Assembly: GCA_943354005.1 (NCBI GenBank)
Contig: CALRBE010000001.1
Location: forward strand, 147 to 64,146
DNA from: an uncultured Candidatus Saccharimonas sp.
GTDB taxonomy: Bacteria > Patescibacteriota > Saccharimonadia > Saccharimonadales > AWTP1-31
Direction: 5' to 3'
Length of the DNA: 64,000 nt
This document shows, piece by piece, positions 4,278 through 56,267 of this stretch. Numbering within the stretch: position 1 is the first letter of the stretch; every line of letters starts with the position of its first letter. The notes under the pieces are model-generated. The model saw nothing but the letters and a program-made list of their open reading frames with translations, was not told the DNA's origin and searched no databases. The position numbers and the translations under genes are program-made.

Positions 4278-5145
4278 TGTTAGTCCTTTTTTGTTTTACA
4301 CTAGAGCGTTTCTTAGCGGACTTCTTAGACGCTCGACGTTTCTTGGTGGTTGATTTTTCTGGTCTAAAATCCATCATGGCAGATACACCTGCAAGATCAT
4401 CTTCTTCAGTTTTACGAGGATAAACATACATTGCTTTTTTTGCTAGAGCAGGCACTTCACCAACAGGAGTCCGTTGGTCATGTACGATACAACCGTCATG
4501 CATATAAACAACCCGATCAGCGTAGCGTGTTATTTCAGGGTTATGGGTCACCATAATAATAGTATTCCCAGTGCGATGTAATTCACTTAGAAGTTCCATG
4601 ACAATAAGACTAGCTGCACTGTCTAAGTTTCCAGTTGGCTCATCGGCAATAATAATCTGAGGGTCACCGACTAATGCTCGAGCTATAGCCGCTCTTTGCA
4701 CTTGGCCGCCGCTAAGCGCCTTAGGCATGAAGTATTGGCGATCTTTAAGACCAACACGCTCCAGCACATCTTCGGCACGCTTTAGACGCTTTACGGTGCC
4801 TACACCGCGATACATTAAGGGCAGGGCAACGTTATCAAGCACACTTAGTTTAGGTAGCAGGTTAAATGACTGAAAAACAAAACCGATTTTGTCGCGACGC
4901 ATTTTGGCGCGCTGATTAGGTCGTAACTTCGAAACATAACGATTACTAAGTAAGTATTCTCCATGAGACGGACGGTCAAGTAGTCCGATAATATTCATTA
5001 GAGTCGATTTGCCTGATCCACTAGGACCCATTACTGCAACGAATTCACCAGCTTCAACATCAATACTGACTTCGTCGAGTGCTACCGTAGTGGCATCGCC
5101 AAAGCCGTACAGTTTACTGACGTCTTTTATAGAAATAATGGGCAT
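4270..5145 (-). CDS. ABC transporter ATP-binding protein (MacB/LolD-like) with Lys-rich C-terminal tail
   Basis: Walker A is GPSGSGKST, the signature is LSGGQ and Walker B is IIIADEPT. The tail is KSTTKKRRASKKSAKKRSSVKQKR. Confidence 0.9.
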   Translation of the reverse strand: MPIISIKDVSKLYGFGDATTVALDEVSIDVEAGEFVAVMGPSGSGKSTLMNIIGLLDRPSHGEYLLSNRYVSKLRPNQRAKMRRDKIGFVFQSFNLLPKLSVLDNVALPLMYRGVGTVKRLKRAEDVLERVGLKDRQYFMPKALSGGQVQRAAIARALVGDPQIIIADEPTGNLDSAASLIVMELLSELHRTGNTIIMVTHNPEITRYADRVVYMHDGCIVHDQRTPVGEVPALAKKAMYVYPRKTEEDDLAGVSAMMDFRPEKSTTKKRRASKKSAKKRSSVKQKRTNNA

Positions 5146-5293
5146 AGAATTTGAGGCTTCTCCGATCCTATATTTATTTATAGGAGTAGATACCTTTATT
5201 CTACGATGTTAATTTATGATAACGCAAGTAAATGCAGGTACTTTTGTCAAAGAAGTCTATAAAACGTTATACTTAGCAGGTAAATAGTAATAT

Positions 5294-5383
5294 GGAGGGG
5301 TCGCATAGTGGCCTAGTGCGCCATCTTGGAAAGGTGGTATGGGGGCAACTCCATCGAGGGTTCAAATCCCTCTCCCTCCGCCA
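5294..5383 (+). tRNA. tRNA-Ser (anticodon GGA), CCA encoded
   Basis: The acceptor stem is GGAGGGG/TCCCTCC and the anticodon stem is CCATC/GGTGG with loop TTGGAAA. It has a long variable arm, T-loop GGTTCAAATCC and a terminal GCCA. Confidence 0.9.
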
Positions 5384-5399
5384 AATAAATTTATAAGCT

Positions 5400-7214
5400 A
5401 TGAAGAATAAAGAAACCAAATCAAAACAATATACACTTCGCTATAACGCGTGGAGAACACTGAAGCTCAATTGGCAAATAGATAGGCTTTCTTTAATAAG
5501 CTACATATGCCTTATGTTGATACAGGTAACTTCAAGTATACTTAGTCTATTTTTTGCGAGCCGTATTATTGGCCAGCTGGCTCAGGCAGCTCAAAAGCAA
5601 CCAGTTTCAGCTAACCACGTCTACATATTACTCGGGGCCTCTACCCTAGCGATACTTTGTGAACGATTTGCATGGCACTGGATATCATTTATTGAACGTA
5701 AAACATGGATTAAATGGTACGTACGTATAGCAGTTGACTATAATAAAGCCGTTTCTGGACTAGACATGGCATGGCACCATAATAATGACTTCGAGAAAAG
5801 GCTTCAGAAAGTACAGCAGGAATACCACTACACACCTCAAAAATTTTCAAATAGTATTTTGAGCTCTGTACATTCGTTAATCAGGCTTATGTCGACATTA
5901 ATAGTCGTTTTTACTTTTGCGCCATGGCTAATAATCATTATGGTAGCGTCCTTACTGCCTGGATTCTTTGCAGAAAAAAGATTTAGTAAAATTAAATGGG
6001 ATCTTTGGGGAGAAAAAGGGGACAAGCCATTGTTGGCATATAAGACAGCTATTTTTCTTCAAGATAAGAAAAAGCTACAGGAAACCAAAATATTTGGCAG
6101 CAGAGACCATCTTATAAATATACTGAAGAGTCTGTACACCGATTTCTACGAACGACAGCTTAAATATCTTCGTAAATTCCAGGTTCATATGTTTGCTGGC
6201 CTAACAACTGAAGTTATTGTTGCCGCAGGAATTACACTTTGGCTCCTAAGAAAAGTATTAAGTGGTTCTCTAAGCCTAGCAAATTATAGTTTTTATAGTG
6301 GTATCATCCTGCAATTTGGCAGCTCGTTAAGCCTAATAGTATCCGGATTAAACTCTATATTCGACAGCAACGAGTACATGAAAGATCTGTATTGGCTTTT
6401 TGACGTAAAGCCTTATTTACCACAAAAAGAAAATCCCATCATAATAGAGAAAGCAGAGATACCTACACTAAGCTTTGAAAATGTGTCATTTAAATACCCC
6501 GGCAGCAGCACATGGGCGCTACGCAATATTAACCTGACAATAAAACCAGGAGATAAAGTTGCTTTTGTTGGGGAGAATGGAGCAGGTAAGACTACTATAG
6601 TTAAGCTTCTACTAAGGTTCTACGATCCAGATGAGGGCCGGATACTCGTAAGTGGGGTCGATGTACGTGATTTAGATATTGCTAGTTATTATAATCACAT
6701 AGGTGTTTTATTCCAGGACTTTAATGACTATCCATACTCGGTGCGCGACAACATAGCATTAGGCCGGGTAGATAACTTCAAGGATGAAAAGAAAGTATTT
6801 AAAGCAGCTAAGTTAGCGGACGCCGATTCATTCATTAAAAAATATCCTGAAGGATACGATCAGATCCTTGAGATTGGTTTTAAAAATGGTATTGAGCCGT
6901 CAGGTGGACAATGGCAACGTATTGCTCTAGCGCGTGCCATGTTTCGGGATGCAGGGATACTAATTCTTGATGAACCAACTGCCGCAGTAGATGCTAAGAG
7001 TGAGTACGAAATCTTTAAGACTCTTGAAGAGCATAGCAAAGATAAGACTACGGTTATTATTTCTCATCGTTTCAGTACCGTGCGTCAGGCTAATATAATC
7101 TACGTAATGAATCAAGGCAAAATAACCGAGCACGGTTCACACAAACTTCTGATGAAAAGTGAGAACGGTATCTATAGAGAGATGTTCAATAAACAAGCTG
7201 AAGGATATCGCTAG
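5400..7214 (+). CDS. ABC exporter, fused permease/ATPase (MsbA-like type I)
   Basis: The N-terminal half has multiple TM helices. Walker A is GENGAGKTT, the signature is SGGQWQR and Walker B is ILILDEPT. Confidence 0.9.
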   Translation: MKNKETKSKQYTLRYNAWRTLKLNWQIDRLSLISYICLMLIQVTSSILSLFFASRIIGQLAQAAQKQPVSANHVYILLGASTLAILCERFAWHWISFIERKTWIKWYVRIAVDYNKAVSGLDMAWHHNNDFEKRLQKVQQEYHYTPQKFSNSILSSVHSLIRLMSTLIVVFTFAPWLIIIMVASLLPGFFAEKRFSKIKWDLWGEKGDKPLLAYKTAIFLQDKKKLQETKIFGSRDHLINILKSLYTDFYERQLKYLRKFQVHMFAGLTTEVIVAAGITLWLLRKVLSGSLSLANYSFYSGIILQFGSSLSLIVSGLNSIFDSNEYMKDLYWLFDVKPYLPQKENPIIIEKAEIPTLSFENVSFKYPGSSTWALRNINLTIKPGDKVAFVGENGAGKTTIVKLLLRFYDPDEGRILVSGVDVRDLDIASYYNHIGVLFQDFNDYPYSVRDNIALGRVDNFKDEKKVFKAAKLADADSFIKKYPEGYDQILEIGFKNGIEPSGGQWQRIALARAMFRDAGILILDEPTAAVDAKSEYEIFKTLEEHSKDKTTVIISHRFSTVRQANIIYVMNQGKITEHGSHKLLMKSENGIYREMFNKQAEGYR

Positions 7215-50770: not shown

Positions 50771-50812
50771 TAAAAATAAACACAACATGTAGTGGATAAC
50801 TACATGTTGTGT
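50771..50812 (-). terminator. Rho-independent terminator after the GH1 gene
   Basis: A 13-bp perfect stem (ACACAACATGTAG/CTACATGTTGTGT) with a 7-nt loop is followed on the minus strand by TTTATTTTTA. Confidence 0.7.
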
Positions 50813-50833: not shown

Positions 50834-52126
50834 CTATTTCGAACTATGTTCATTTTTTGTCGGTAATTCACCGCGCTGCATAGCATCGATTTTATTTGCG
50901 AACCATTCTGAACTTGGACGAATAGTTCGCTTCATACCATGTTCGCGGTCAACGTGCACAAGACCGAACTTTGGCCACCAGCCATATTTCCATTCAAAGT
51001 TGTCCAGTAAGCTCCAATGGAAGTATCCATGCAGCTCAACTCCCTCACTCATTGCCCGTTCCATAGCGACGATTGTTTCTTCTATCCACCATTGACGATA
51101 TTCATCTCGATGGTCGGCAACTCCATTTTCAGTTATTATAATTGGTTTTTTATAGTGTGATTTTACTCGAACAAGAAGCGGATATAGACCCTCCGGTTCC
51201 ATGTACCATCCTAAGTCGTTACGCGGCGCTCCTGGGTTATCACGGCGAATTCCTTTGTAATAGTCCGTAAAGTAATAATTAAAGCCTATAAAGTCCTGCT
51301 GATTGCGAATCCTATTTAAGTACCACCAGTTCCATAAGTAGCGCATCCACATGGTAACCGTTACATCGATAATATTATGAGGTCTTTTTGCCTGTATGTT
51401 TGCAAGCTGAGAAGCGACACCAACCATCAGGGTCGGATTGTTTCGCTTTAATATCTTATAGGCCTGTTTGTGCGCCCGTATAAGATTAAAATAGACTGCA
51501 GCGGTAAGGCGTAAACTTCTTTTTTGCGGTACCCATTCGCCAGTATAGTAACTAAATGTCGCATATACGTTTGGCTCGTTAATAGTAATTACGTACATTA
51601 AGTCATGTCCGAATTCATTGGCAATCTTTTGCACAAAGCGACGCCAATATTTTAGGTTACGGCGTTTCTCAAATCCGCCTTTTTCTGCAAACCATGTTGG
51701 CATTGTCCAGTGCCAAAGGTTTAAGAATGGTTCGAGCCCACGTTTTTTTAGTTGCAGTATATACTCGCGGTAGTGCTCAATCTCATCAAGATTCCACTCT
51801 CCCTCGCTAGGCTCTAGTCTTGACCATTCAACGCCAAAGCGAAATGCATTAAGATTTAGTTTTTTTGCAATATCAAAATCTTCTTCATACCTATTGTAGT
51901 GATCTACTCCCTTACCAGAGACATAGTTTTCTGGTTTTTCGGCATGTTTTTTTATGTCCTGCCAGTCAGGAAGCGTATATGCAATACGTTCATGAGATGT
52001 TTTAGCAAGTTCTTGAGCATGGGATAGTTCCCATTCGCTCCATTGATTAACGGTGCCACCTTCTACCTGGTGACTTGCGGTACTTGCCCCCCAGAAAAAA
52101 CCTTTTGGAAATATATTTTTAGCCAT
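50834..52126 (-). CDS. GH1 family beta-glucosidase
   Basis: The N-terminal signature is FFWGASTASHQVEGG. The acid/base motif is ITINEPNV and the nucleophile motif is IIITENGVAD. Confidence 0.92.
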   Translation of the reverse strand: MAKNIFPKGFFWGASTASHQVEGGTVNQWSEWELSHAQELAKTSHERIAYTLPDWQDIKKHAEKPENYVSGKGVDHYNRYEEDFDIAKKLNLNAFRFGVEWSRLEPSEGEWNLDEIEHYREYILQLKKRGLEPFLNLWHWTMPTWFAEKGGFEKRRNLKYWRRFVQKIANEFGHDLMYVITINEPNVYATFSYYTGEWVPQKRSLRLTAAVYFNLIRAHKQAYKILKRNNPTLMVGVASQLANIQAKRPHNIIDVTVTMWMRYLWNWWYLNRIRNQQDFIGFNYYFTDYYKGIRRDNPGAPRNDLGWYMEPEGLYPLLVRVKSHYKKPIIITENGVADHRDEYRQWWIEETIVAMERAMSEGVELHGYFHWSLLDNFEWKYGWWPKFGLVHVDREHGMKRTIRPSSEWFANKIDAMQRGELPTKNEHSSK

Positions 52127-52177: not shown

Positions 52178-52750
52178 TCAATCAGTTGTTGGCTTTTTTA
52201 CTTTTGTAAAATGCCTATAGGCGAGTAGCTTGCGTTGCTTATCTATTCGGTCTATGTATTCTTCGTAGGCATTATAAAGATTTGAATACTGGCCGTTTGG
52301 AGCTAGCAAATTAAGTAGCTTGCCTTCTTTAGCAAGATATTCAACGAGACAATAAAAATCACCATCACCACTCACGACGACTGCCTTATCGTAGTTTTTC
52401 ATTTCTTTTACTGCCCAAAGAACAAGCTCCGCATCAACGTTCCCTTTTATAGCCTTCTTTTCTTCTACCTTGCCTTCTTCCTTGGTTTCTTTCTGGACTT
52501 CAGGCTTGAGGATTCGTGTCATATCGAAAGTTGGCTTTAAAACTACAAGATAGCCAAGCTCGTGCATCTTGTGATACATATCTTCATGCTCGGGCATATG
52601 CCCTATGAACATAAAGGCTTTTGTGACTCCATAACTCTCTTCTAGGAATTGGCGGAACTTCTTCCAGTCCATTTTCCAGCCTATCTTTTGTACCCCAAGA
52701 TTCAAGTTCTGGTTATCAATAAATGCGTAATTACCTTTTTTTGTTGCCAT
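52178..52750 (-). CDS. NYN (LabA-like, PIN-fold) domain protein
   Basis: Motifs YAFIDNQNLNLG and VVVSGDGDFYCLVEYL are present. A Lys/Glu-rich insert sits between them. Confidence 0.8.
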   Translation of the reverse strand: MATKKGNYAFIDNQNLNLGVQKIGWKMDWKKFRQFLEESYGVTKAFMFIGHMPEHEDMYHKMHELGYLVVLKPTFDMTRILKPEVQKETKEEGKVEEKKAIKGNVDAELVLWAVKEMKNYDKAVVVSGDGDFYCLVEYLAKEGKLLNLLAPNGQYSNLYNAYEEYIDRIDKQRKLLAYRHFTKVKKPTTD

Positions 52751-52759
52751 CTAGAAATA

Positions 52760-53770
52760 TCATACCACTTCTTGTTCACTATTTTCAGTGACCCGTAATG
52801 GTTTTTTATTCTTAATTTCATAACGTTTACCGGTCAGTGATGATTCAACGTAGTCATCGTTTAGTAGATTTACAAATTTTGTTAAATCTTTTACGTCCAT
52901 AATAATAATTGCCCCGTCGTTGTCGGTCATCAGGTTTACTCCGAGTTCCTCAGCGTGATCCATGAGTGGCCCCTGCTCTATTCCGGCAGGTTCGATTTTC
53001 TGTAATTTATTGACCAGACTTTTTTGTCCTTGTACTAGATTTTCCCAGCTTAAGCCAATATCAAAGTGAAACGTAAATTGAGCCTCAATCTCTTTAATCT
53101 TTCGAAGTGCAATACTATATTTTTTAGCATTATATCCAAACAGTTGTTCCAATCTAGTTTGACTAAATGCGTACAAGTCTTGATCCAATATAAGAAGCTG
53201 GTTATCGCCAGGAAAACGAAGGCTACCTTCAGCATCAAAAGGCACAAACTTTCCGTTACGTAGCATCCACGATGTCTGCCCTTTCATGACCATGCTACCT
53301 GGTAGTAGTTTAACTATATAAAATGGCCACGGTAGGTCTTTATGGGTACATCGCGCTAGTATTCCTTTTACACGCTTTAGATCATGATCTTCCTCGACAA
53401 ATGTCTCTATGACACTCTCTTGGGTTTTTACCCAATTCAGGAGTTCCTGGGCTTTTTGAACATTTTTTAGCTGTGTTCGCTGCAGAACATTCTCTTCCGC
53501 TTCGCCATCCTCAAAATCTCGTACTGTCATTCCCTCTGCTGAACCTTGTAATACTGTTTCGAGCAGGCCATCTATGAGTAATGGCTGATATGACTTTACT
53601 AGGTCCTTACTTACTTTCGTACGATAAACTACAAAATTCTTATTAAATAAAAATAGGTCTATTTCTAGTTCTTCTTTAATTGGTACAAGATTATTAGCCC
53701 ATAAGAAAATATCAGTTCGTTCTGTATCTTTTGGAGCATCAGCTATGTCTTTAACGGTCTCTTCGTCCAT
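52760..53770 (-). CDS. orphan 336-aa protein (size and composition reminiscent of DUF4868/KwaB, unverified)
   Basis: An uninterrupted ORF ending 9 nt before the NYN start. It has no TM helix and no catalytic motif I can name. Confidence 0.55.
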   Translation of the reverse strand: MDEETVKDIADAPKDTERTDIFLWANNLVPIKEELEIDLFLFNKNFVVYRTKVSKDLVKSYQPLLIDGLLETVLQGSAEGMTVRDFEDGEAEENVLQRTQLKNVQKAQELLNWVKTQESVIETFVEEDHDLKRVKGILARCTHKDLPWPFYIVKLLPGSMVMKGQTSWMLRNGKFVPFDAEGSLRFPGDNQLLILDQDLYAFSQTRLEQLFGYNAKKYSIALRKIKEIEAQFTFHFDIGLSWENLVQGQKSLVNKLQKIEPAGIEQGPLMDHAEELGVNLMTDNDGAIIIMDVKDLTKFVNLLNDDYVESSLTGKRYEIKNKKPLRVTENSEQEVV

Positions 53771-53863
53771 GGTAATTCCTCTTTTTCAATGTTAGTTTTT
53801 TGGCATACACATTATTCTAGCCTAAATTAGGCCTCTTGCATGCTGTAAAATTTTTTATTTTTC

Positions 53864-54283
53864 TTAAGCTTTAGCTTTTGTGATGCGAGCATCATTTGCC
53901 CAAACGTCAGCTAACTCGTTACCAGGGTTATTATTATGGCCACGTACCCATACCAGTTTCGCTTTACTGGCTCTGTAAAGTGGACATACCTCTTTAACTA
54001 TATCGAGATTCTTTATTTCACCTGATTTTTTCTTCCAACCATTTTTTTCCCATGAGATTGACCATTCAGTAATAACTTTAATCCAAAATTCACTATCTGT
54101 ATGTATCTCACATGGTGTCTGTTTAGCATCCTTAAGCGCTGCAATGATAGCAAAGCCTTCCATTCGAATATTGGTTGAGTCTGGCTCACTACCAAGAATA
54201 TGCGGCTTCATATCTTTAATGACTGCGAATCCACCAGGACCGGGATTCGGACTACAACTTCCGTCTGTATAATAAATTACCAT
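53864..54283 (-). CDS. rnhA: ribonuclease HI
   Basis: The DEDD set is present: YTDGS, MEGFAIIAAL, HTDSEF and NELADVWAN. Confidence 0.9.
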   Translation of the reverse strand: MVIYYTDGSCSPNPGPGGFAVIKDMKPHILGSEPDSTNIRMEGFAIIAALKDAKQTPCEIHTDSEFWIKVITEWSISWEKNGWKKKSGEIKNLDIVKEVCPLYRASKAKLVWVRGHNNNPGNELADVWANDARITKAKA

Positions 54284-54337
54284 TGCTTGATCCCCTTTTT
54301 TGTAGATACCTCATAATAGCATGCTGAAGCAGACCAA

Positions 54338-54853
54338 CTAGCTGATTTTGCCGGGTAAATGCTCCACAATTAGCGGTATGCCGATAATAGGAACGGCTAC
54401 ATATGGATAGACCGCGGAAACGAATCCATTGTATTTTTCGCCAATATCATAAGGCAATTCTTCTGGTTCAACTGTGTAAAAGAGTGCAGATAGAACTGGC
54501 ACCTCTTGGGTAGAAATATCGGGTAAAAGAAACGCTTCTTTTGGAGCAAACAACATAGTTACTTGCGCGAATAATCCAATAAAGCTTGCTGCGTAGCCGT
54601 CAACAGTTTCACCAGATCGCATATCTACAGAATCACAGCCTATGCAGTAAGAGGCATGAATTCCGCACACTTTACTTGATAGCTGTTGCTCGGCAACTAT
54701 CTGTAGTCGATCATATAGTTCATCAAATACGTCAAATTCATCCTCATTGAGATGTAGCGCAACTTCGGCAAGCGAACAGGCCATATCCTCAACTGGCGAC
54801 ATGTCGATTCGCCGTAGGCCTGATTCTTCAAACATAAAAGGATCTTGTTCCAT
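54338..54853 (-). CDS. acidic orphan protein
   Basis: A 171-aa ORF, 49 nt downstream of glyQS and 54 nt upstream of rnhA, on the same strand. I recognise no domain. Confidence 0.5.
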   Translation of the reverse strand: MEQDPFMFEESGLRRIDMSPVEDMACSLAEVALHLNEDEFDVFDELYDRLQIVAEQQLSSKVCGIHASYCIGCDSVDMRSGETVDGYAASFIGLFAQVTMLFAPKEAFLLPDISTQEVPVLSALFYTVEPEELPYDIGEKYNGFVSAVYPYVAVPIIGIPLIVEHLPGKIS

Positions 54854-54902: not shown

Positions 54903-56267
54903 TTACGAGTTATTGATCTTACTCAGTAGATCCGCAATCGGAACACGAATCTGATTCGTAGTATCTCGGTCTCGTACAGTGACTGTATCGTCTTCAAGCG
55001 TCTGAAAATCGATAACAACACACTGCGGAGTACCAATCTCATCTTGGCGACGATAACGTTTACCAATATTTCCATTGTCGTCCCACAAAACAGAACCATA
55101 GTGCTTTTTGGCGGCTACGAAAACTTCGCGAGCTTTTGCAACGAGTTCAGGCTTATTCTTTAGTAATGGTGAAATCGCCATTTTTACTGGAGCTAAATGT
55201 TCAGGAAGCTTAAGGAAAGTACGGTCCTCTCCTTTTTGCTGGTCTACACTATACGCACTATCCATAACTGCCAGCACCAATCTATCTAGACCAAAGGTTG
55301 GTTCAATGACATGTGGGATATAAGGAACTGAGCCATCTTTCGGAATGTAATTGAGATTTTTACCAGATGCTGCTGAGTGAGCCTTTAAATCATAGTCTGT
55401 TCTATAGGCGCAACCACCCAACTCTTTTTGTCCAATTGCGAAATCGAATTCAGTATCTATAGAATGTTTACTGTAATGTGCACGGTCCTCTGCAGGTACC
55501 TCTATCTGATGAATTTTATCTTCTGGCAAGCCAAGGTAGATATAAAATTCCTGCTGTAGTTTTAGCCATATTTCGAATTGTTCTTTCCAGGAGTCTGGGT
55601 GTATGAATACTTCAAGCTCCATTAGTTCCATTTCACGTAAACGAAAAATAAAATCACGTGGAGAAATTTCGTTACGGAAGGACTTACCAACTTGTGCTAA
55701 AGCAAATGGCATATTAGGACTAAAGCTGTCTACGACATTTTTAAAGTTAACGAACATTCCTTGTGCGGTTTCAGGACGTAAGTAGCTAACACTCGTATCG
55801 TCTTCTGAAGCACCAACCTGTGTTTTGAACATCATATTAAACTGTCGAATATCACTTAGTGGATTTCCATCTGGGCTTTTGATGGCGTTCACTTTAAGTG
55901 CTTCATTCATTTGTTCTACACTCATTGCAGCTACATTCTCAATACCGGCGTCTTCTAATAAGTGATCCGCGCGATGACGTTTCTTATTTTTCATGTCTTC
56001 AACAAGAGGATCATTAAAACCATCAACATGGCCACTGGCCTGCCAAACTTTTTGATTCATAAGAATTGCAGCATCAATTCCATATACATCTTCTCGTGAT
56101 TCAACGAAAAATTTCCACCAAGCATCAACTATATTACGTTTAAGCTGAACTCCAAGTGGACCGTAATCCCATGTGCCTGCTAAACCGCCATAGATTTCAC
56201 TACCTTGATAAATAAAGCCTCTGCGTTTTGCAAGACTAACAATGTCTTCTAATTTTGTTTCACTCAT
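54903..56267 (-). CDS. glyQS: glycine--tRNA ligase (dimeric GlyQS type)
   Basis: Motifs RRGFIYQGSEIYGGLAGTWDYGPLG, FRNEISPR and GLDRL are present, with a C-terminal anticodon-binding domain. Confidence 0.93.
   Translation of the reverse strand: MSETKLEDIVSLAKRRGFIYQGSEIYGGLAGTWDYGPLGVQLKRNIVDAWWKFFVESREDVYGIDAAILMNQKVWQASGHVDGFNDPLVEDMKNKKRHRADHLLEDAGIENVAAMSVEQMNEALKVNAIKSPDGNPLSDIRQFNMMFKTQVGASEDDTSVSYLRPETAQGMFVNFKNVVDSFSPNMPFALAQVGKSFRNEISPRDFIFRLREMELMELEVFIHPDSWKEQFEIWLKLQQEFYIYLGLPEDKIHQIEVPAEDRAHYSKHSIDTEFDFAIGQKELGGCAYRTDYDLKAHSAASGKNLNYIPKDGSVPYIPHVIEPTFGLDRLVLAVMDSAYSVDQQKGEDRTFLKLPEHLAPVKMAISPLLKNKPELVAKAREVFVAAKKHYGSVLWDDNGNIGKRYRRQDEIGTPQCVVIDFQTLEDDTVTVRDRDTTNQIRVPIADLLSKINNS

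What the first reader, a model, noticed from the sequence alone, without database searches (positions are those of the whole stretch)
52178..54853. Tight co-directional cluster of an acidic orphan, RNase HI, a 336-aa orphan and a NYN nuclease, wedged between glyQS and a GH1 glucosidase
Four minus-strand genes sit with short spacers of 54, 93 and 9 nt. Two of them are nucleic-acid hydrolases that I can support from motifs. One is RNase HI, with the DEDD residues in YTDGS, MEGF, HTDSEF and ELAD. The other is a NYN/PIN-fold protein with FIDNQNL and SGDGDF. They flank a 336-aa protein with no TM helix and no motif I can name, and the cluster is led by a 171-aa very acidic orphan. The 336-aa protein ends only 9 nt before the NYN start, which suggests co-translation. 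Its length and mixed composition remind me of DUF4868 (the KwaB component of Kiwa), but I cannot verify that by eye. In Kiwa the partner is a membrane protein, not a NYN nuclease. A nuclease, unknown sensor-sized protein, nuclease arrangement is typical of phage-defence or RNA-surveillance modules. I know of no named system with this gene combination. Alternatively, rnhA is plain housekeeping and the neighbours are unrelated.
Basis: partly seen in the sequence, partly recalled or inferred. Interest (0 to 1): 0.65.

Follow-up and report, generated by a model that had tools for sequence, protein, structure and literature searches.

The report
KwaA-less KwaB homolog, not a module
The four genes are real but do not form one system: the 336-aa protein is a homolog of the anti-phage DNA-binding protein KwaB that lacks its usual membrane partner, is shared between Saccharibacteria and their phages, and sits next to an ordinary RNase HI, a widespread NYN nuclease and a genus-specific orphan.

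Summary
All four minus-strand ORFs and the 54/93/9-nt spacers are exact. The spacing is ordinary here: 20 consecutive minus-strand genes, median spacer 49 nt. The 336-aa protein passes Pfam KwaB, and its AlphaFold model matches only KwaB in the PDB (E~3e-12, full length). No KwaA exists in the window, in 82 related Saccharibacterial loci or in 22 phage loci, whereas distant relatives do sit in canonical KwaA-KwaB operons.

The four-gene module is not supported.
- NYN is directly downstream in only 22/82 loci.
- Gene order takes 38 arrangements.
- The two genes lie 167 kb apart in Southlakia epibionticum.
- NYN-anchored syntenic loci often lack KwaB-like (6/6 fully bracketed).
- NYN belongs to a CPR-wide family, RNase HI is housekeeping, and the acidic ORF is a genus-level orphan.

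KwaB-like is non-essential in published Tn-seq and patchy across lineages. Where present it co-diverges with mraZ/rsmH (rho~0.9). Its nearest relatives lie in phage replication/recombination modules.

Best reading: a stand-alone KwaB-family DNA-binding accessory protein. This is a new variant of a known kind, of modest interest.

The parts
52760..53770 (-). KwaA-less KwaB-family gene (336 aa). The N-terminal Rossmann-like domain is ~aa 1-183 (53222-53770). The C-terminal DUF4868 domain is ~aa 184-336 (52763-53221). It ends with the family signature LLNDDYVESSLT (aa 302-313).
   Evidence: Pfam PF16162 scores 32.9 bits against a GA of 26.3. PADLOC KwaB PDLC00233 hits at 2.7e-10 over aa 33-328. 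NCBIfam KwaB scores 44 bits, below its cutoff of 200. The AF2 model has pLDDT 75.9. In Foldseek the only significant PDB hits are KwaB 9mtn/9mrx/9nyu at E~3e-12 over ~320 columns. The alignment to E. coli KwaB is collinear.
52178..52750 (-). LabA-type NYN (PIN-like) nuclease gene (190 aa). Its start lies 9 nt after the KwaB-like stop, with no clear SD in the spacer, so translational coupling is possible.
   Evidence: Pfam PF01936 hits at 1e-13. The nearest PDB sequence is 2qip. D12, D106, D129 and D131 are >=97% conserved in 53 orthologs. The Southlakia ortholog SEML1_0084 is flagged as a core, Patescibacteria-enriched family and is non-essential.
53864..54283 (-). RNase HI gene (139 aa), housekeeping. 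It has a good SD (AAGGGGA) upstream.
   Evidence: Pfam PF00075 hits at 9e-32. NCBIfam RNase HI scores 112.7 bits, below the equivalog cutoff of 160. The Southlakia ortholog SEML1_0262 is called NE/NE/GD. It lies within 4 kb of KwaB-like in 35/82 loci, in variable positions.
54338..54853 (-). Genus-specific acidic orphan (171 aa, pI 4.07, net charge -21).
   Evidence: It has no Pfam, NCBIfam or PADLOC hit. Only 7 homolog clusters exist, 71-96% identical, at the same locus. The AF2 model is unusable at pLDDT 39.6.
53771..53863 (-). 93-nt spacer upstream of the KwaB-like gene, containing a short hairpin (AGGCCTAATTTAGGCT), an AT-rich -10-like TAGAAT and the SD AAAGAGGA. It may hold the gene's own promoter; this is inferred only.
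   Evidence: The sequence was read. The consensus scan gave no significant promoter there.
54903..56267 (-). glyQS (GlyRS), the upstream syntenic flank.
   Evidence: ORF.
50834..52126 (-). GH1 glycosidase, the downstream syntenic flank. It is followed by a strong terminator-like hairpin at 50780-50812, then mraZ-rsmH and the dcw cluster.
   Evidence: with orthologous loci.

Best explanation
This is a stretch of ordinary, conserved Saccharimonadales chromosome (recO-glyQS ... GH1-mraZ-rsmH-dcw), not a four-gene system. One gene in it is notable. It encodes a full-length KwaB-family protein (Rossmann-like N-domain plus DUF4868 C-domain) and has no KwaA membrane partner anywhere nearby.

The gene belongs to a KwaA-less branch of the KwaB family that is shared between Saccharibacteria chromosomes and phages or integrative elements. 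In those elements it sits inside replication/recombination modules. In the window's lineage the gene is inherited vertically under strong purifying selection. It is nonetheless an accessory gene: it is missing from the same locus in other Saccharibacteria and is dispensable in Tn-seq.

Inferred mechanism: like E. coli KwaB, the protein dimerises and binds ss/dsDNA non-specifically (ends or forks) through the DUF4868 region, but without a membrane sensor. It most plausibly hinders replication of invading DNA, or otherwise handles it.

The other three genes are independent. The NYN gene 9 nt downstream is a widely conserved, probably active CPR nuclease. It is a facultative neighbour that may be co-transcribed in this subclade. 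RNase HI is housekeeping. The acidic ORF is a young genus-specific orphan.
For: SHOWN.
- KwaB identity is supported by Pfam, PADLOC and fold.
- The alignment with solved E. coli KwaB is collinear and shares the C-terminal LxxDDYxxSxLT signature.
- No KwaA was found by PADLOC in 57 window proteins.
- No KwaA was found by jackhmmer over 4781 ORFs of the window plus all loci, and only 6/105 loci have any multi-TM neighbour.
- The positive control works: distant relatives P0170/P0309 sit in KwaA(PF28043)-KwaB operons beside R-M genes.
- The family occurs in >=348 species-representative genomes, and all 80 loci fetched are Saccharibacteria.
- Identity to the window protein co-varies with MraZ (rho 0.93), RsmH (0.95) and GH1 (0.85).
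- Presence is patchy. NYN-anchored loci that cover glyQS to GH1/mraZ lack KwaB-like in 6/6 cases, and 11 other NYN-anchored loci have it.
- Published Tn-seq in Southlakia calls SEML1_0265 (DUF4868) NE/NE/NE, and NYN SEML1_0084 is 167 kb away and also NE (PMC10633639 Tables S1/S2).
- Phage relatives reach 48% identity. They sit next to RecT, exonuclease, a replication initiator, RusA/ParB/RtcB or terminase/HNH. Two BFVD siphovirus proteins share the fold.
- An NJ tree places the chromosomal clade as a crown group within a phage-rich grade, with canonical Kiwa basal.

INFERRED.
- DNA binding rests on E. coli KwaB biochemistry (PMC11785009).
- It also rests on conserved basic residues (K154, K163, R185, R206, K255) at or within one column of the E. 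coli DNA-contact positions.
Against: - Only 1 of the 6 experimentally implicated DNA-contact residues aligns strictly (R167->R185), at 15-17% identity.
- The protein is acidic overall (pI 4.9, net -15), whereas E. coli KwaB residues 43-307 are about neutral by my own count.
- Long-term vertical retention at housekeeping-like rates is unusual for a defence gene.
- No activity, oligomeric state or trigger has been tested.
- The NJ tree has no support values, and one 'viral' locus (L086) may be a host flank.
- Prevalence across all Saccharibacteria could not be measured.
Confidence: 0.45

Rival explanations
1. KwaB-like and NYN form a two-gene, Kiwa-derived defence system in this subclade. KwaB-like binds invading DNA, and the NYN nuclease replaces KwaA as partner or effector and degrades nucleic acid.
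For: - A 9-nt spacer separates the two genes.
- NYN is directly downstream in 22/82 loci, including all 17 that are >=72% identical (identities).
- NYN is somewhere within the flanks in 53/82 loci, always co-directional.
- NYN-KwaB-like co-divergence is rho 0.87.
- The NYN active-site Asp residues are conserved.
- PADLOC holds NYN models.
Against: - The genes are unlinked in Southlakia, 167 kb apart.
- There are 38 different gene orders, and 18 loci have KwaB-like alone.
- NYN-anchored loci lack KwaB-like in 6/6 fully bracketed intervals, and in 13/18 loci with >=3 kb on both flanks.
- NYN is a CPR-wide, Patescibacteria-enriched core family.
- Phage KwaB-like genes never have NYN beside them, and phage NYN loci have no KwaB-like.
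- Co-divergence is equally high with the unrelated MraZ and RsmH.
- The PADLOC NYN model matches only its C-terminal half.
- The NYN-type candidate HEC-09 gave no defence in tests.
Confidence: 0.15
2. KwaB-like is a lineage-specific housekeeping DNA replication, repair or recombination factor (for example a fork- or end-binding protein) that works alongside the nearby RNase HI, Pif1 helicase, RecO and NYN.
For: - Inheritance is vertical, with divergence rates like RsmH and GH1 and slower than RecO.
- Nucleic-acid enzymes recur as neighbours within 4 kb: RNase H in 35/82 loci and Pif1 in 34/82.
- Phage homologs sit in RecT/exonuclease/replication-initiator modules.
- E. coli KwaB prefers ssDNA and is proposed to act at forks.
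Against: - Insertion counts are flat and the gene is called non-essential in Southlakia Tn-seq.
- It is absent from the syntenic locus in many Saccharibacteria.
- No relative from another CPR lineage was identified among the loci and named cluster members examined.
- Unrelated flanking genes (GlyRS 34/82, GH1 27/82) are linked about as often as RNase H and Pif1, so the neighbourhood reflects general synteny.
Confidence: 0.22
3. All four genes (acidic ORF, RNase HI, KwaB-like, NYN) form one defence or RNA-surveillance module.
For: The genes are co-directional with short spacers, and two of them are nucleases.
Against: - The acidic ORF exists in only 7 clusters of one genus.
- RNase HI is absent from, or displaced in, most related loci, and it is a core housekeeping family.
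- The spacing is typical of the whole 20-gene run.
- PADLOC finds no complete defence system in the window, only isolated or generic model matches.
Confidence: 0.03

Closest known systems
Kiwa defence system (KwaA + KwaB; E. coli ECOR8/ECOR12; PDB 9mtn, 9mrx, 9nyu)
   Same: The two-domain KwaB architecture and fold are the same (Foldseek E~3e-12 over ~320 columns). The protein passes Pfam PF16162, the alignment is collinear, and the C-terminal DDY signature is shared. DNA binding through the DUF4868 region is plausible.
   Different: - There is no KwaA, so no membrane tethering or membrane-stress sensing.
- Identity is only 15-17%, and the NCBIfam KwaB score is 44 bits against a cutoff of 200.
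- The protein is acidic overall.
- It sits in conserved housekeeping synteny rather than a defence island.
- It is inherited vertically in a CPR lineage.
- 5 of 6 mapped DNA-contact residues are not strictly conserved.
Phage-encoded DUF4868 proteins (phrog_11123; IMG/VR loci L085-L106; BFVD A0A8S5QWK1)
   Same: These are the closest sequence relatives outside the chromosomal clade, at up to 48% identity. They also lack KwaA and have the same length and fold.
   Different: They are encoded on phages or integrative elements, inside replication/recombination or packaging-proximal modules. Their function is unknown. None has NYN as a neighbour.
LabA-like NYN domain proteins (PF01936; PDB 2qip VPA0982; PADLOC NYN PDLC01154; HEC-09)
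   Same: The NYN/PIN-like fold signature and the four conserved acidic residues are present.
   Different: The window protein is a single-domain 190-aa protein with a charged insert (aa ~82-100). It matches only the C-terminal half of the PADLOC NYN model. It is a CPR-wide core family rather than a defence-island gene.
Bacterial RNase HI (rnhA)
   Same: The Pfam RNase_H match is full length, and the DEDD motifs YTDGS, MEGF, HTDSEF and NELAD are present.
   Different: Nothing unusual. It scores below the NCBIfam equivalog cutoff (112.7 against 160) because of CPR divergence.

Membership tests
Kiwa system | A KwaB component with a DUF4868 domain | tested here: met
   Pfam PF16162 scores 32.9 bits against a GA of 26.3. 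Five PADLOC KwaB models hit, the best at 2.7e-10 over the full length.
Kiwa system | The two-domain KwaB fold (Rossmann-like N-domain plus DUF4868 C-domain) | tested here: met
   The AF2 model (pLDDT 75.9) matches only KwaB chains in the PDB, at E 3e-12, ~320 aligned columns and TM 0.44-0.53.
Kiwa system | A KwaA multi-pass membrane partner encoded next to KwaB | tested here: not met
   No PADLOC KwaA hit appears among 57 window proteins. jackhmmer with two KwaA sequences hits only the control loci L108-L110. Only 6/105 loci have any multi-TM ORF within 400 nt, and those are heterogeneous. Controls P0170/P0309 do have KwaA PF28043.
Kiwa system | NCBIfam KwaB equivalog score (NF041623, cutoff 200 bits) | tested here: not met
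   The score is 44.4 bits.
Kiwa system | Conservation of the DNA-contact residues N134, R142, R167, D169, K187 and R233 | tested here: inconclusive
   Only R167->R185 aligns strictly. Invariant K/R residues lie within one column of four others. The alignment is at 15-17% identity.
Kiwa system | Defence-island or mobile-element context | tested here: not met
   The surroundings are housekeeping synteny. There is no GC anomaly. PADLOC finds no complete defence system in the window, only isolated or generic model matches.
Kiwa system | Protection against phages or plasmids | not testable with these tools
   This needs experiments. The only functional data are from Tn-seq, where the gene is non-essential in phage-free co-culture.
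NYN / LabA-like nucleases (PF01936) | Pfam domain above the gathering score, with conserved acidic active-site residues | tested here: met
   The score is 52.4 bits against a GA of 24.2. D12, D106, D129 and D131 are >=97% conserved in 53 orthologs.
PADLOC NYN defence candidate (PDLC01154) | A full-length match to the 310-position model | tested here: not met
   Only model positions 151-308 are matched. The N-terminal half of that architecture is absent.
RNase HI | An RNase_H domain with DEDD catalytic residues | tested here: met
   PF00075 hits at 9e-32 over aa 2-132. The motifs are visible in the translation.

The most novel reading that the evidence does not exclude
KwaA-less KwaB-like proteins may be a distinct, phage-centred family of DNA end- or fork-binding proteins that work in phage recombination/replication modules, filling a Gam- or Ku-like slot next to RecT and exonuclease. 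On this reading one such gene was captured and fixed in a large Saccharibacteria clade, and membrane-tethered Kiwa KwaB is only one specialised use of the fold. If so, KwaB function does not require KwaA, and the chromosomal copy could be a constitutive stand-alone barrier to, or processor of, incoming DNA in naturally competent, genome-reduced episymbionts.
Probability: 0.17. Interest if true: 0.65.

Novelty: new variant of a known kind. Interest (0 to 1): 0.36.

Why it matters
Kiwa has been analysed only as a KwaA+KwaB pair, and the published survey deliberately kept complete operons only. A well-conserved KwaA-less branch would show that the KwaB/DUF4868 DNA-binding module can act independently of a membrane sensor. 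This branch is present in at least 348 Saccharibacteria species and in their phages' recombination modules. It would also offer a tractable test case, because the ortholog SEML1_0265 lies in the genetically manipulable Southlakia epibionticum. For genome annotation, the practical lesson is that a lone KwaB hit beside nucleases in CPR genomes should not be called a defence system.

Tried and rejected
- Sequence searches of the 336-aa protein and of its family profile against PDB sequences found nothing. The link to KwaB needed fold comparison and intermediates.
- Structure prediction of the acidic ORF failed (pLDDT 39.6), so no fold search was run on it.
- A Pif1 helicase recurs near KwaB-like in relatives, so I looked for it in the window. 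It is absent.
- I considered KwaB-like a clade-wide core gene after the KwaB-anchored loci and the co-divergence analysis. The NYN-anchored reciprocal test showed it is patchy, so I rejected that view.
- The NYN single-sequence scan of viral contigs found nothing. The alignment-based scan found two loci without KwaB-like.
- tblastn against deposited phage genomes gave no match.
- Literature searches for DUF4868, or for Kiwa together with CPR terms, found no prior description of this branch.
- The promoter/terminator consensus scan was uninformative between the four genes.
- Other PADLOC hits in the window (mad2/3/8, AriA and others) appear only as family-level counts. I took them for generic ATPase/kinase-type matches and did not pursue them.
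Full report
OBSERVATION. The spacers are 9, 93 and 54 nt. Composition is unremarkable (GC 0.37-0.41 against about 0.40 in the flanks).

The tightness is not special. The block lies inside a run of 20 consecutive minus-strand genes in a window that is about 90% coding. The median same-strand spacer is 49 nt, and 72% of spacers are <=93 nt. The gaps to glyQS (49 nt) and GH1 (51 nt) are just as short. The organism is a Candidatus Saccharibacteria (TM7) bacterium. A species-representative MAG labelled 'uncultured Candidatus Saccharimonas sp.' carries a locus whose KwaB-like gene is 99% identical.

IDENTITIES. RNase HI is supported by Pfam at 9e-32, and NYN by PF01936 at 1e-13.
- Pfam PF16162 'KwaB' scores 32.9 bits, above its gathering score of 26.3.
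- Five PADLOC KwaB models hit, the best at 2.7e-10 over residues 33-328.
- NCBIfam KwaB gives 44 bits, far below its equivalog cutoff of 200.
- Sequence searches against PDB chains found nothing.
- An AlphaFold2 model built on 36 homologs (pLDDT 75.9, pTM 0.69) matches only KwaB in the PDB: 9mtn, 9mrx and 9nyu at E about 3e-12, ~320 aligned columns, 15% identity and TM 0.44-0.53.

I reconstructed E. coli KwaB residues 43-307 from HMMER alignments and bridged them to the family with intermediates. The alignment is collinear and shares the C-terminal signature (E. coli LMSDDYLQSDLT, here LLNDDYVESSLT). The Kiwa study used six DNA-contact residues in its binding-dead mutant (PMC11785009). Of these, only R167->R185 aligns strictly. 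Invariant Lys/Arg residues (K154, K163, R206, K255) lie within one column of four others. The protein is acidic overall (pI 4.9, net -15).

NO KwaA. PADLOC finds no KwaA among 57 window proteins. As a positive control, distant relatives P0170 and P0309 (21-22% identical to the window protein) sit in textbook Kiwa operons. There KwaA (PF28043, 180 aa) overlaps the KwaB start, next to R-M genes. I ran jackhmmer with those KwaA sequences over 4781 ORFs from the window and every fetched locus, and it hit only the controls. Only 6 of 105 loci have any ORF with at least 3 TM segments within 400 nt of the KwaB-like gene, and those ORFs are heterogeneous. The published Kiwa survey kept only complete KwaA+KwaB operons, so this branch was outside its scope.

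IS IT A MODULE? The KwaB-like family has 3033 relatives in the 90%-clustered database. It occurs in at least 348 species-representative genomes, and all 80 loci fetched are Saccharibacteria. Across 82 non-redundant KwaB-anchored loci:
- NYN is directly downstream in 22, including all 17 that are >=72% identical.
- NYN is elsewhere in the flanks, up- or downstream and always co-directional, in 31.
- NYN is absent despite flanks of at least 5 kb in 14.

The relative order of RNase H, KwaB-like, NYN and a recurrent Pif1-type helicase takes 38 different forms. 'RNH-KwaB-NYN' occurs 12 times and KwaB-like alone 18 times. Unrelated flanking genes are linked about as often as RNase H and Pif1: within 4 kb, GlyRS is found in 34 loci, GH1 in 27, RNase H in 35 and Pif1 in 34.

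In the cultivated Southlakia epibionticum ML1 the local order is RNase HI, a hypothetical gene, Pif1 and DUF4868 (SEML1_0262 to SEML1_0265), followed by GH1. NYN (SEML1_0084) is 167 kb away (PMC10633639 Tables S1/S2).

The reciprocal test used 80 metagenomic loci anchored on NYN (45-65% identity). KwaB-like was found in only 11 of them. All six loci that cover the whole interval from glyQS/recO to GH1/mraZ contain NYN but no KwaB-like. Loci with and without KwaB-like are interleaved in NYN identity. NYN is one of the 'core, Patescibacteria-enriched' families of Méheust et al. as used by Wang et al., whereas the DUF4868 gene is not. The acidic ORF has only seven homolog clusters, all at this locus in one genus, and evolves faster than its neighbours. 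So the four genes are not a unit, and even the KwaB-like-NYN pair is facultative.

EVOLUTIONARY BEHAVIOUR OF THE KwaB-LIKE GENE. Where the gene is present, its identity to the window protein tracks that of MraZ (rho 0.93), RsmH (0.95), GH1 (0.85), NYN (0.87) and RecO (0.79). Its divergence is similar to RsmH and GH1 and slower than RecO. This is vertical inheritance under strong constraint. It is nevertheless patchy between lineages, and in Southlakia Tn-seq it is non-essential at all three time points with flat read counts.

PHAGE RELATIVES. IMG/VR holds 22 relatives at 25-48% identity. PHROG annotation shows these are phages or integrative elements, and the gene sits in DNA-metabolism modules.
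- L085: RusA, ParB, KwaB-like and RtcB, with RecT and an exonuclease further along.
- L087: a replication initiator next to KwaB-like, plus tail fibre and endolysin genes.
- L088: RecT, KwaB-like, then an FtsK-like gene.
- L089: integrase, RecT and an exonuclease-FtsK fusion, then KwaB-like.
- L091-L106 (human oral samples): TerS, TerL and HNH, then KwaB-like, then a DNA methyltransferase.

The cluster of the oral group includes a Nanosynbacter genome protein and 'Caudoviricetes sp.' entries. BFVD contains two siphovirus proteins with the same fold. Deposited phage genomes have none. A rough NJ tree without support values places canonical Kiwa KwaBs basally, then a phage-rich grade, then the chromosomal Saccharibacterial genes as a tight crown clade with phage L085 as sister. 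None of the phage copies has KwaA or NYN beside it.

MECHANISM (INFERRED). E. coli KwaB is a dimer that binds ss and dsDNA non-specifically through a positively charged channel in the DUF4868 region. It has no nuclease activity and is proposed to stall replication forks. The protein here keeps the fold and a belt of invariant basic residues in the corresponding region, and it lacks the membrane sensor.

I therefore propose a stand-alone DNA-binding accessory protein that acts on invading or replicating DNA. A KwaA-independent barrier is the likeliest role, given its homology, patchiness, dispensability and phage ties. A lineage-specific repair or replication role is the main rival, given the vertical constraint and the phage recombination context. 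A KwaB-like-NYN two-gene system limited to this subclade remains possible but is disfavoured.

NOVELTY AND SCORE. NCBI already labels these proteins 'KwaB-like domain-containing', and Wang et al. list the Southlakia ortholog as DUF4868. In the literature I could search, I found no description of the following points:
- a KwaA-less branch;
- its vertical retention in Saccharibacteria;
- its phage recombination-module relatives.

This is a new variant of a known kind. The proposed four-gene module is refuted, so overall interest is modest (0.36).

Noticed in passing
L085:7986-8942; L087:7986-8966; L088:7992-8975; L089:7998-8963; L091:5169-6134: Real phage or integrative-element contigs carry KwaA-less KwaB-like genes inside replication/recombination modules, beside RecT, exonuclease, a replication initiator and RusA/ParB/RtcB. 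In an oral-sample group the gene sits right after TerS/TerL/HNH. This position is reminiscent of the Gam slot of Red-type modules.
   Followed up: partly
window 54903-56267 (glyQS) and orthologs in L001-L084: GlyRS identity to the window protein is bimodal (~50% against ~80%). It is uncorrelated with KwaB-like, MraZ or RsmH identity (rho -0.14), which suggests xenologous replacement of glyQS among Saccharibacteria.
   Followed up: no
L003:7723-9246 and 34 other loci; SEML1_0264 in Southlakia: A ~510-aa Pif1/RecD-like helicase recurs next to or near KwaB-like, always co-directional. It is absent from this 64-kb window.
   Followed up: partly
L108:2576-8975; L109:807-4244: Canonical Kiwa operons occur here, with KwaA PF28043 overlapping KwaB. 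They are embedded with a DNA methylase, RE_NgoFVII, Z1 and Vsr (L108), or with HNH and a methylase (L109). The same KwaB protein is on record on a 1.05-Mb contig labelled Verrucomicrobiae.
   Followed up: no
L086:6430-8963: Integrase, RNase H and KwaB-like lie at the end of an IMG/VR contig that also carries an endolysin. The RNase H-KwaB-like pair mirrors the chromosomal arrangement and may be host DNA flanking a prophage.
   Followed up: no
L025, L051, L066, L081 (record titles): Loci with typical Saccharibacterial genes or synteny sit in MAGs labelled Limnocylindria, Limnocylindrales, Acidoferrum and Nevskiaceae. P0053 and P0309 are labelled Verrucomicrobiae. These are probably mis-binned or mislabelled contigs.
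   Followed up: no
cluster of P0155: One 90%-identity cluster mixes 321-aa DUF4868 proteins with 109-aa HNH endonucleases. The two genes are adjacent in phage L091 (HNH 4746-5090, KwaB-like 5169-6134), so the cluster was probably bridged by a fused or mis-called ORF.
   Followed up: no
window 52451-52507 (NYN aa ~82-100): The NYN protein carries a lysine/glutamate-rich insert (KPEVQKETKEEGKVEEKKA) between conserved blocks. It is variable in length and sequence among orthologs (alignment A4).
   Followed up: no
window 50780-50812: A strong terminator-like hairpin (14-bp stem followed by a T-rich tail) lies just after GH1. It is the only convincing terminator-like site on the minus strand in the 50.6-56.4 kb stretch scanned, which covers glyQS to GH1.
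   Followed up: no
L003:1609-2839; L001:4459-4965: The interval between glyQS and KwaB-like holds variable cargo in relatives, including a HipA-like kinase, NUDIX, peptide deformylase and hypotheticals. It behaves as a local insertion hotspot, and the window's acidic orphan occupies the same slot.
   Followed up: no
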